Source of the DNA: Candidatus Kaiserbacteria bacterium
Lineage (GTDB): Bacteria > Patescibacteriota > Minisyncoccia > Phycocordibacterales > Phycocordibacteraceae
DNA: 64,000 nucleotides
Assembly: GCA_016217905.1 (NCBI GenBank)
Contig: JACRFL010000013.1
Location: forward strand, 3,184 to 67,183
Reading direction: 5' to 3'
A program made the translations under genes and the position numbers. Positions 55,992 to 58,543 of the stretch are shown one piece after another (position 1 is the stretch's first letter; each line of letters opens with the position of its first letter). The notes below the pieces were generated by a model. It searched no databases. It worked only from the letters and a program-made list of their open reading frames with translations, and was not told where the DNA came from.

Positions 55992-57812
55992 TTAACGAAC
56001 CTCGTATCCGGCATTTTTGAGCGCCCCGGAAACTCGCTCCATGGTGCCGTTTATCTCCTCGTCGGTAAGCGTCCGTTCCGTGGACTGGAAGACGAGATGG
56101 AATGCAAGCGAGACTCTTCCTTCCTTCTCGAACCGATCGAATTGGTCGAGACGTACGAGAAATCCTCTCGCGTTCTTCCGAATGATGGACTTCGTAAGTC
56201 CATCATCAGCGCCCGGCGGTACCCAGAGCGCGATGTCGCGCGTCATAAACGGGTACGCAGAAAACGGTCTGTAGACACCGAGCACGGGTCGCTTCGGCTC
56301 ATACGCCGTGCCGTAGTCTTCGAGCTTCGCGATGGAAAGATTGTCGACTGTGCCCGCCGCGTCGCCCCATTCTGGTATGCGCTCGGTCATGCGCAATTCG
56401 AGATATTCGCCCTCTTTCGGGAATACCGTGCCGACTTCAAAAAGTTTCGGCTTCTGATTCGGAGCAAGCACCAGAGGCGAGTACTGTTTCGCTCGTGCAA
56501 GCGCATCATTCAAATTATCTTCAAGGCTCGTTCGGAGTGCCGGCATATTTTTGTCAAGAGGATTCGCAAGCAGCACGTCGCCCTTCGGAGCAAACGATTG
56601 CGTCGAGACTTCGGTGAACCCCTGCTCCACCAGCTGGTCCTTCATCCGCTCGACGCCGCGATAACGCGCTTGGTCGGGCACGCCGGCAATCGGCGGGAGC
56701 TCGGTGGCGGGCACGCGATCATAGCCGATGAGGCGTCCGACTTCTTCAACGAGGTCTTCGGGGATAGCAAGATCGGTGCGTTCGAAGGGCGGCGCAACGA
56801 TGAACGTTTCTCCTTCGGTTTTCGTTTCGAGCCCGAGACGCACGAAGGCGCTCTTGACTTCTTCACGCGAAAAAACCGCGCCGAGCACGCGGTTTATTTT
56901 ACCGAGCGAAACGGACACCGCAGGCGCGGGCGGAGGTGACGCGGGATATTCATCAACGACTCCGACGACTTCCCCGCCGGCGATTTCTGTAATAAGAGCA
57001 AGTGCGTCGCGCATTCCGTACGCAGCAAGTTCGAGATGCGGGCGATTCTGGAAGCGCGCGCTCGCCTCGGTGAAGAGCTTGAGTGCCTGCGCGGTGCGGC
57101 GCACGCTTGTGCCGTCGAAGTTCGCCGATTCGACGATGATGTCCGTCGTGGCGGCAGTCACCTCGGCCGCCTTCCCGCCTTTCACGCCCGCGATACCGAT
57201 GGCTGCGTCGCGCTGCGCGTCGGTGATAAGGAGTGTTCCTTTGGGGAGTGTGTATTCCTCGCCCGTCAGTGTGATTATTTTCTCGCCCTCTCTTGAGGCG
57301 CGCACACCGATGACGTATCTTCCCTCTTTGCCGATAGCACGAGCCGCGTCAAACGCGTGGAGCGGCTGGCCGACATTCAGCATCACGTAATTGGTCGCGT
57401 CGACGATGTTGTTAATCGAGCGTTGTCCGATCGTTTCAAGCGCTTCCTTGAGCCAGCTCGGTGAAGGTCTGACTTTCACATTGCGCACGAGTGCGCCCAT
57501 GTAGCGTAGACACTTTTTCGGGTCCTCGATCTCGACCGAAAGTGATGTGGGACGTACGACGTCCCACGCGGGCAGCGCCTCGCGAAGCGGGTCGCTTTTG
57601 AGCGGGATGTCGAGTATCGCGGAGAGCTCACTTGCGATCCCGCGATGGCAGAGACAGTTCGCGGCGCGGTTGGGCAATACTTTTATATCCATCAAATCAC
57701 CGGTCGATTCTTCGATCTCAAACGCATGGAAGGTGAATGCGTCGGCAACTATCTCCGCCTTCGGCAAAGACGTATCAAAATAGTTCTGGAGCCATTTCAG
57801 AGAGACTTTCAT
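55992..57812 (-). CDS. pheT: Phenylalanyl-tRNA synthetase beta subunit, about 600 aa
   Basis: N-terminal [15 protein letters not shown]3/B4 and B5 domains, and a C-terminal FDRFEKEG...[10 protein letters not shown] anticodon-binding-like domain. Its start overlaps the pheS stop. Confidence 0.9.
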
Positions 57813-58543
57813 ACTCGGTTTTCATCAAACGCATAATTGAACCGGATGTCACCCGAATGGAAAAGGCGAACATCAGGCGCGCCGTATTTGACCATGAGTA
57901 AACGCTCTATGCCCCCTCCAAAAGCAAATCCTTGATATTTTTTCGGATCGACGCCTGCGCTTTCAAGTACGCTCGGGTGCACCATGCCCCCGCCTGACAT
58001 CTCGAGCCATTTCCCCTCTTTCCCGACTGGCTCGAACCATGCGTCTATTTCGACGGAGGGTTCGGTGAAGGGAAAGAACGAGGGACGGAAGCGCGCTCAT
58101 GAACGTTCTCCGAGATATTCGCGATAAAATTTTTCAATCGTCCCCTTGAGGTGCGCGAGCGTTATGTCCGTACCGACCGCGAGCCCTTCGAGCTGATAGA
58201 ACTGTGCTTCGTGCGTCGCGTCGGTCGCTTCATTGCGGAAAACTTTCCCCGGCACGATGATGCGGTAGGGCGGCTCGATTCCCTTCTTCATCTGCTGCTC
58301 CATATACCGTATCTGGACGGGCGAGGTGTGCGTGCGAAGGACCTTCCCCGGCTGGTCCTTGATCCAAAACGTATCCTGCATGTCGCGCGACGGATGATCC
58401 GGCGGTACATTCAGCGCGGTGAAGTTGTGCCACTCGTCTTCAAGTTCGGGGCCATACGCGATGCCGAAGCCCATGCGGCCGAAGATATCCGCCATCTCGC
58501 GGATGGCGATAGTGAGGGGATGGAGGCGTCCCGACTGGTTCAT
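57809..58543 (-). CDS. pheS: Phenylalanyl-tRNA synthetase alpha subunit, minimal catalytic-core form, interrupted by an in-frame TGA at 58097-58099
   Basis: ORFs 58097..58915 (N part) and 57809..58000 (C part) are in the same frame. Translation across the TGA reads [52 protein letters not shown], which is the contiguous PheS motif-2/3 region. Start taken at MNQSGRLHP (ATG 58543). Confidence 0.75.

What the first reader, a model, noticed from the sequence alone, without database searches (positions are those of the whole stretch)
57809..58543. Essential pheS is interrupted by an in-frame TGA although the protein alignment is continuous
Translation across 58097-58099 gives ...[32 protein letters not shown]..., an uninterrupted PheS catalytic motif region; E. 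coli has ...[17 protein letters not shown]. There is no frameshift, only a single stop codon. pheS is indispensable. So this is either a base-call or assembly error, or a very recent nonsense mutation that survives in a population-derived assembly, or local UGA read-through or recoding. Together with the in-frame TGA at 8887 and the TAG at 3144, that makes three single-codon interruptions in 64 kb.
Basis: seen in the sequence. Interest (0 to 1): 0.6.

Follow-up and report, generated by a model that had tools for sequence, protein, structure and literature searches.

The report
Assembly-specific stop codon in pheS
The stop codon inside the essential pheS gene is a single-base difference found only in this deposited metagenome-assembled genome; an independent assembly of public reads from the same bacterium has an arginine codon and an intact gene, so this is an error or rare variant, not unusual biology.

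Summary
pheS (minus strand, 57809-58543, 244 codons) has one in-frame TGA at 58097-58099. The TAG at 3144 and the TGA at 8887 are also real.

The window comes from an NCBI MAG, Candidatus Kaiserbacteria, locus tags HY972_*. The deposit itself annotates the PheS halves as two 'hypothetical proteins'.

Four Logan contigs from run SRR12113407 cover 16,037 bp of the window. They differ from it at only two bases:
- Window base 58099: the contig has AGA (Arg) where the window has TGA. pheS is an intact 244-aa gene there.
- Window base 3145: the contig has TCG (Ser) where the window has TAG. The GH130 gene is an intact 638-aa gene there.

All 80 related Patescibacteria genomes have an uninterrupted short PheS, with K/E/Q/N/D/R at this position.

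TGA, TAG and TAA all end ordinary genes in the window, and pheS itself ends in TGA. I found no tRNA, no SECIS-like element and no restart signal.

Recoding is therefore neither needed nor supported. The pheS stop is a consensus error or a minority nonsense allele captured by the MAG.

Two points stay open. Both private differences are nonsense, which is unexpected for random changes. The third stop (8887) may also be present in the Logan data and may be a genuine mutation in a surface protein.

The parts
57809..58543 (-). pheS, phenylalanyl-tRNA synthetase alpha subunit. This is the short (244-codon) form typical of Paceibacteria and contains only the catalytic core.
   Evidence: Translation. 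Pfam PF01409 at E=1e-88 on the repaired protein. Aligns to E. coli PheS residues 102-325. The intact 244-aa product is called on Logan contig L001.
58097..58099 (-). In-frame TGA (codon 149). The variable base is window 58099: A on the + strand, which is T on the coding strand. The independent assembly has AGA (Arg).
   Evidence: This is the only mismatch in 3,185 bp between L001 and the window.
58100..58543 (-). N-terminal PheS fragment as deposited: 148 aa, MBI5405941.1, HY972_02800, 'hypothetical protein'.
   Evidence: Exact-sequence look-up.
57809..58048 (-). C-terminal PheS fragment as deposited: 79 aa, MBI5405940.1, HY972_02795. It is annotated from a non-canonical start, lacks motif 2, and is not a plausible independent gene.
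   Evidence: The first canonical in-frame start after the stop is an ATG at codon 182.
55992..57812 (-). pheT, the beta subunit (606 aa). Its ATG overlaps the natural TGA stop of pheS (ATGA).
   Evidence: Pfam B3_4, B5, tRNA_synthFbeta and FDX-ACB. The exact protein is in both NCBI and Logan. The overlap is shown.
1794..3710 (+). Two-domain GH130 glycoside phosphorylase gene, interrupted by TAG at 3144-3146.
   Evidence: Logan contig L002 has an intact 638-aa product with PF04041.
3144..3146 (+). In-frame TAG. The variable base is 3145: A in the window and C in the independent assembly (TCG, Ser).
   Evidence: This is the only mismatch in 4,498 bp between L002 and the window.
7483..10224 (-). 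Surface protein of 913 codons with a lipase/acyltransferase-like domain, interrupted by TGA at 8887-8889.
   Evidence: Homologs carry PF02450 and PF24096 and have R or W at the aligned position. The deposit splits it into MBI5405902.1 (445 aa) and MBI5405901.1 (399 aa).
8887..8889 (-). In-frame TGA in the surface-protein gene. It is not shown to be private to the MAG.
   Evidence: The 445-aa N-terminal product is listed from Logan as well as NCBI. No intact 913-aa variant with R, W, G, L, S or C at the site is in the collection.

Best explanation
The TGA in pheS is one wrong or unrepresentative base in the consensus of a deposited metagenome-assembled genome (NCBI, Candidatus Kaiserbacteria bacterium, locus tags HY972_*, 76.6-kb contig). 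On the coding strand the codon is AGA (Arg) in the bacterium's reads, as assembled independently, and TGA in the deposit. The organism therefore has an ordinary, intact, short-form PheS, translationally coupled to PheT. Nothing unusual happens at the ribosome. The same applies to the TAG in the GH130 gene (TCG Ser in the independent assembly). Shown: the sense allele exists, and the two assemblies are otherwise identical. Inferred: the deposited base is a consensus or assembly error. I give that about 55%, which is the confidence stated here. The closely related alternative, a real minority nonsense allele that the assembler picked up, I give about 30% and list as the first rival. Together, about 85% that the stop is private to this assembly and involves no recoding. 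Only read pile-ups can separate these two.
For: (1) Logan contig SRR12113407_92799 (L001) matches window 55809-58993 over 3,185 bp with a single mismatch, at 58099. It reads AGA where the window reads TGA, and its pheS is called as one 244-aa product. (2) Logan contig L002 matches window 1-4498 with a single mismatch at 3145 (TCG versus TAG) and has an intact 638-aa GH130 gene. (3) Contigs L003 (window 4924-8064) and L084 (window 20134-25346) are 100% identical to the window. Three more window proteins of 181, 199 and 570 aa are exact in Logan. The two assemblies therefore represent the same population. (4) The truncated 148-aa and 450-aa products exist only in the NCBI deposit, and the intact 244-aa and 638-aa products only in Logan. 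(5) All 80 related genomes have an uninterrupted PheS of about 240 aa with K/E/Q/N/D/R at this position. (6) The truncated product stops at Pfam profile position 156 of 246, before motifs 2 and 3, so it could not be active. (7) All three stop codons terminate genes in the window (TAA 15, TGA 13, TAG 8), and pheS itself ends in TGA. (8) Draft MAG consensus sequences are known to contain locally unsupported bases and arbitrary choices between variants (PMC7111523).
Against: Random errors or polymorphisms should mostly be silent or missense. Only 3.2% of possible substitutions in the compared 16 kb create a stop, yet both differences seen are nonsense and no other difference was found. The finding was selected for containing stops, and that weakens this argument, but the excess is not explained. 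The independent assembly may come from a different sample than the MAG, so it does not show which allele dominates in the MAG's own reads. The third stop (8887) may be reproduced in Logan, so not all three stops can be dismissed as errors.
Confidence: 0.55

Rival explanations
1. The stop is a real nonsense allele segregating in the natural population. Some cells carry pheS(TGA149), perhaps as recent dead-end mutants, and the MAG assembler followed that allele while the Logan assembler followed the wild type.
For: MAGs are population consensus sequences, and the choice between near-equal variants can be arbitrary (PMC7111523). The two assemblies are otherwise identical, as expected for one population. 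The 445-aa fragment of the surface protein being in Logan too suggests at least one nonsense codon is present in reads. Alternatively a Logan contig may end exactly at a variable base, which would itself indicate polymorphism at that site.
Against: A pheS null allele should be lethal and could not reach the frequency needed to win a consensus. Two nonsense alleles with no accompanying silent or missense variants in 16 kb is not what natural variation looks like.
Confidence: 0.3
2. UGA and UAG are read through or recoded in this bacterium, by a suppressor tRNA, leaky termination, selenocysteine or an altered genetic code. Full-length PheS would then be made from the interrupted gene.
For: There are three in-frame stops in 64 kb with otherwise continuous protein alignments. 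Some other CPR lineages (Absconditabacteria, Gracilibacteria) do read UGA as glycine (PMC8629427).
Against: A sense allele (AGA) exists in independently assembled reads, so no recoding is needed. TGA ends 13 and TAG ends 8 of 36 confident genes in the window, including rpoB, rpoC, dnaE, gyrB and pheS itself. The aligned residue in relatives is K/E/Q/N/D/R, not Gly, Trp or Cys. The window has no tRNA and no Rfam family, SECIS models included. The 86 nt from the stop onward fold no better than shuffled sequence (z=-1.17). Two different stop codons are involved. Known bacterial stop reassignments all affect UGA and occur mostly in low-GC clades (PMC8629427), whereas this window is about 58% GC.
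Confidence: 0.03
3. The deposited MAG is right and the Logan contigs are wrong at these two bases.
For: Logan contigs for this organism are short (3-5 kb), which suggests modest coverage in that run.
Against: Two independent errors would each have had to convert a stop into a sense codon that restores a conserved gene. By my recollection, Logan unitigs also require each k-mer to be seen at least twice. The sense versions match the intact state seen in 80 of 80 relatives.
Confidence: 0.02
4. pheS is a decaying pseudogene, and another gene elsewhere in the genome supplies PheRS activity.
For: None beyond the stop codon itself. The rest of the genome could not be examined.
Against: There is a single lesion. 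The gene is otherwise identical to the intact allele, keeps the 4-nt ATGA coupling to an intact pheT, and keeps every conserved motif. It is the only pheS-like locus in the window.
Confidence: 0.02

Closest known systems
Single-base consensus errors and arbitrary variant choices in draft metagenome-assembled genomes (Chen et al. 2020, Genome Res, PMC7111523)
   Same: This is a population-derived short-read assembly deposited without read-level curation. It contains isolated bases that another assembly of reads from the same organism does not support. Genes become split and are annotated as 'hypothetical protein' fragments.
   Different: That paper mainly describes local misassemblies, gaps and repeat errors rather than isolated substitutions. 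Here both detected differences create stop codons, which random error does not predict.
UGA-to-glycine reassignment (genetic code 25) in Absconditabacteria and Gracilibacteria, which are also CPR/Patescibacteria
   Same: An in-frame UGA inside a conserved gene of a CPR bacterium.
   Different: In code 25, UGA is not a terminator, occurs in frame in most genes at glycine positions, and is read by a tRNA-Gly(UCA). Here UGA terminates 13 of 36 genes, including pheS. The aligned position is not Gly. A UAG is interrupted as well. The lineage is Kaiserbacteria (Paceibacteria) at about 58% GC.
Selenocysteine insertion at UGA directed by a bacterial SECIS hairpin
   Same: A single in-frame UGA in an otherwise continuous enzyme gene.
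   Different: There is no SECIS-like family hit and no stable hairpin after the UGA. Homologs have K/E/Q/N/D/R rather than Cys or Sec at the position. The position lies in a variable surface stretch before motif 2, not at a redox centre. The sense allele encodes Arg.

Membership tests
PheS, class II aminoacyl-tRNA synthetase alpha subunit (Pfam PF01409 tRNA-synt_2d) | A full-length match to the class II core (F) profile above the gathering score | tested here: met
   The repaired or Logan protein scores 297.5 bits (cut-off 19.8) over profile positions 12-244 of 246. The window's 148-aa fragment alone covers only positions 12-156.
PheS, class II aminoacyl-tRNA synthetase alpha subunit (Pfam PF01409 tRNA-synt_2d) | Motif 2 (RFRPSxFPFTEPS) and motif 3 (GFAFGxGxERL) present and in frame | tested here: met
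   Both motifs are present downstream of the stop in the same frame, and they align to E. coli PheS in PDB 3pco.
PheS, class II aminoacyl-tRNA synthetase alpha subunit (Pfam PF01409 tRNA-synt_2d) | An adjacent pheT encoding the beta subunit | tested here: met
   pheT lies at 55992-57812 with B3_4, B5 and FDX-ACB domains, and its start overlaps the pheS stop.
Stop-codon reassignment (genetic codes 4 or 25) | The reassigned codon is not used as a terminator of ordinary genes | tested here: not met
   TGA ends 13 and TAG ends 8 of 36 confident genes in the window, including rpoB, rpoC, dnaE and pheS itself.
Stop-codon reassignment (genetic codes 4 or 25) | In-frame stops align with one particular amino acid (Gly or Trp) in homologs | tested here: not met
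   The pheS site aligns with K 23, E 22, Q 12, N 6, D 5, R 3 and others in 80 relatives. The GH130 site is Ser in the sense allele. The surface-protein site is R or W.
Stop-codon reassignment (genetic codes 4 or 25) | A cognate suppressor tRNA (anticodon UCA or CUA) and loss of the matching release factor | not testable with these tools
   There is no tRNA gene in the 64-kb window. The rest of the genome was not available.
Selenoprotein (UGA = Sec) | A SECIS stem-loop immediately 3' of the UGA | tested here: not met
   No Rfam hit at gathering threshold anywhere in the window. The 86 nt from the UGA onward fold at z=-1.17 against shuffles.
Selenoprotein (UGA = Sec) | Cys or Sec at the aligned position in homologs | tested here: not met
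   No Cys occurs at the position among 80 relatives.
Assembly-private base (consensus error or minority allele) | An independent assembly of reads from the same population carries a different base at the site and is otherwise identical | tested here: met
   L001 has 1 mismatch in 3,185 bp, L002 has 1 in 4,498, L003 has 0 in 3,141 and L084 has 0 in 5,213.
Assembly-private base (consensus error or minority allele) | Reads from the MAG's own sample do not support the deposited base, or support it only as a minority | not testable with these tools
   No read-level data are available here.
True pseudogene | Several disabling lesions, or relaxed constraint relative to the functional allele | tested here: not met
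   There is one substitution only. All other positions are identical to the intact allele over the whole operon.

The most novel reading that the evidence does not exclude
The Kaiserbacteria population sampled for the MAG really carries nonsense codons in pheS, a GH130 gene and a surface protein, at high frequency. It would survive because UGA and UAG are partly suppressed, by a suppressor tRNA or unusually leaky termination. That would be an early, polymorphic stage of stop-codon capture in a high-GC CPR bacterium. The fact that the only differences between the two assemblies are nonsense would then be a signature of that state rather than a coincidence.
Probability: 0.03. Interest if true: 0.65.

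Novelty: not a real feature. Interest (0 to 1): 0.1.

Why it matters
It has little biological importance: the organism has a normal PheRS. It matters practically for three reasons. The deposited MAG lacks an annotated pheS, because both halves are labelled 'hypothetical protein'. This can lower completeness or marker-gene scores and could mislead metabolic or genetic-code screens. It also shows that single in-frame stops in MAGs should be checked against reads or a second assembly before recoding is invoked. If the novel reading were true, it would be a rare view of stop-codon suppression arising in a natural population, but the evidence points the other way.

Tried and rejected
- Exact 40-mers around the pheS site (variable base as N) and around the 8887 site (codon as NNN) were searched in genome contigs and metagenome contigs. 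There were no matches, so those collections gave no third copy of the locus.
- The look-up of encoding contigs found no Logan contig for several proteins: gyrB, the ORFs at 36499-38448, 24860-26101 and 41411-42382, the FAD oxidase (two start choices), and the 143-aa ORF. Logan contigs are probably broken inside those genes. Only 25% of the window could therefore be compared base by base.
- I searched homologs of the surface protein hoping for the same organism's intact copy. The best hits are only 72-78% identical, but they showed R or W at the aligned position.
- I looked up six hypothetical intact versions of the surface protein (R, W, G, L, S, C at the stop). None is in the collection.
- Alternative genetic code: rejected on terminator usage.
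- Selenocysteine: rejected.
- Split gene with restart: rejected. There is no canonical start until codon 182, and motif 2 would be lost.
- Stops planted in the window: rejected, because the truncated products are in NCBI under the MAG's own accessions.
- Four apparent stops in relatives' pheS alignments were only their natural C-terminal stops.
- A literature search for the run accession found nothing.

Full report
**What is in the sequence**

pheS lies on the minus strand at 57809-58543 (244 codons). Translation gives ...[35 protein letters not shown]..., with a single TGA at 58097-58099 (codon 149) and no frameshift.

The repaired protein matches Pfam PF01409 (class II core, F) at E=1e-88 over almost the whole profile. 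The 148-aa fragment upstream of the stop covers only profile positions 12-156 of 246. The protein aligns with E. coli PheS (PDB 3pco) residues 102-325. The stop sits two residues before the RFRPS of motif 2, so a product ending there would lack motifs 2 and 3.

pheT (606 aa; B3_4, B5 and FDX-ACB domains) follows directly. Its ATG overlaps the natural TGA stop of pheS as ATGA.

- TAG at 3144-3146 in a two-domain GH130 gene.
- TGA at 8887-8889 in a 913-codon surface protein with a lipase-like domain.

A scan for stops flanked by long open frames, read against the gene map, gave no further interrupted coding frame.

**Where the window comes from**

Exact-sequence look-ups place the window's proteins in an NCBI MAG. 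It is 'Candidatus Kaiserbacteria bacterium', locus tags HY972_*, accessions MBI54058xx-59xx, on a 76,600-bp contig.

The deposit already contains the stops:
- The PheS halves are MBI5405941.1 (148 aa) and MBI5405940.1 (79 aa, from a non-canonical start). Both are labelled 'hypothetical protein'.
- The truncated GH130 is MBI5405895.1.
- The surface protein is split into MBI5405902.1 (445 aa) and MBI5405901.1 (399 aa).

The stops are therefore a property of the public record, not of the window's preparation.

**The decisive comparison**

The same organism was assembled independently by Logan from run SRR12113407.

| Logan contig | Window span | Length (bp) | Mismatches | Detail |
|---|---|---|---|---|
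| L001 | 55809-58993 | 3,185 | 1 | at 58099: AGA (Arg) in Logan, TGA in window; pheS called as one 244-aa product |
| L002 | 1-4498 | 4,498 | 1 | at 3145: TCG (Ser) in Logan, TAG in window; GH130 called as one 638-aa product |
| L003 | 4924-8064 | 3,141 | 0 | identical |
| L084 | 20134-25346 | 5,213 | 0 | identical |

Three further window proteins of 181, 199 and 570 aa are exact in Logan. The intact PheS and GH130 proteins occur only in Logan, and the truncated ones only in NCBI. A functional sense allele of pheS therefore exists in reads from this population.

**Relatives**

A scan of GTDB representative genomes returned 80 Patescibacteria loci (Paceibacterota, Kaiserbacteria, Adlerbacteria, Taylorbacteria and others). 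Each has an uninterrupted PheS of about 240 aa, 57-80% identical to this one.

At the aligned position they have K (23), E (22), Q (12), N (6), D (5), R (3) and a few others, never a stop. Four apparent stops in those alignments were only the natural C-terminal stops. The position is a variable polar residue, so Arg fits.

**Tests for recoding**

- All three stop codons terminate confident genes in the window: TAA 15, TGA 13, TAG 8. These include rpoB, rpoC and dnaE (TGA), gyrB (TAG) and pheS itself (TGA).
- There is no tRNA gene in the window.
- There is no Rfam family at gathering threshold, SECIS models included.
- The 86 nt from the UGA onward fold no better than shuffles (z=-1.17).
- No canonical in-frame start follows the stop until codon 182, so a split gene is not viable.
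- Only one pheS locus is in the window.
- Known bacterial stop reassignments all affect UGA only. They are UGA to Gly in Absconditabacteria and Gracilibacteria, and UGA to Trp in Mycoplasmatales, Entomoplasmatales and several insect endosymbionts. Most of these clades have very low GC (PMC8629427). This window is about 58% GC and has a UAG interruption as well.

**Interpretation**

The pheS stop, and likewise the GH130 stop, is a single base private to the deposited consensus. I cannot separate a plain consensus or assembly error from a real minority nonsense allele that the assembler followed, because that needs read pile-ups. Draft MAGs are known to contain unsupported consensus bases and arbitrary choices between variants (PMC7111523). 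I favour error, at roughly 55% against 30%, because a pheS null allele should not reach consensus frequency.

**What remains odd**

1. Only 3.2% of possible substitutions in the compared 16 kb would create a stop, yet both differences found are nonsense and there are no others. If the three stops were the nonsense tail of random noise, about 23 other differences would be expected in those 16 kb. Selection of this window for its stops weakens that argument but does not remove it.
2. Both private changes place an A on the + strand (T to A at 58099, C to A at 3145). If the ancestral codon at 8887-8889 was Arg, as in most homologs, the third would too. Restricting to 'any base to A' raises the nonsense fraction only to 5.9%. 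From memory, some assemblers turn an ambiguous base into A. This is untested.
3. The 445-aa N-terminal fragment of the surface protein is listed from Logan as well as NCBI, and no intact variant is in the collection. Either that TGA is genuinely in the reads, which would be a plausible real nonsense mutation in a non-essential surface protein, or a Logan contig ends exactly at a variable first codon base.

**Verdict**

This is not a real feature of the organism's biology as far as pheS is concerned, so interest is low.

Noticed in passing
window 57809-58543 and 55992-57812; loci L004-L083: PheRS is minimal in this lineage. PheS is only about 240 aa and starts at the equivalent of E. coli residue ~102, so it lacks the N-terminal coiled-coil arm. 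PheT is 606 aa with its first Pfam domain (B3_4) starting at residue 100, so the usual N-terminal B1/B2 part is missing. All 80 Patescibacteria relatives share the short PheS.
   Followed up: partly
window 58099, 3145 (and possibly 8889): The only two differences from an independent assembly over 16 kb both create stop codons, and both put an A on the + strand. This is unexpected for random error or natural variation and may point to a systematic artefact, such as an ambiguous base written as A.
   Followed up: partly
window 8887-8889 (gene 7483-10224, minus strand): The N-terminal 445-aa fragment of the interrupted surface protein is recorded from a Logan assembly as well as from the NCBI MAG. 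This stop may therefore be a genuine mutation, or a polymorphic site where a contig ends. Homologs alternate between R and W at this position.
   Followed up: partly
window 20127-20163: A perfect 37-bp palindrome lies exactly where Logan contig L084 ends. It may be a hairpin-forming element or terminator between genes.
   Followed up: no
window 625-4453: A sugar-utilisation cluster: a single-domain GH130 (388 aa), a two-domain GH130 (638 aa) and a phosphomannomutase/HAD-type protein (247 aa), packed with gaps or overlaps of 0-2 bp.
   Followed up: no
window about 11990-13140: A stretch of roughly 1.1 kb without a convincing open reading frame, tRNA or Rfam hit, in an otherwise densely coding window.
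   Followed up: no
window 57809-58543 (NCBI records MBI5405940.1 and MBI5405941.1): The public annotation labels both PheS halves 'hypothetical protein', so the deposited genome appears to lack pheS. This could affect completeness estimates and marker-gene phylogenies.
   Followed up: yes
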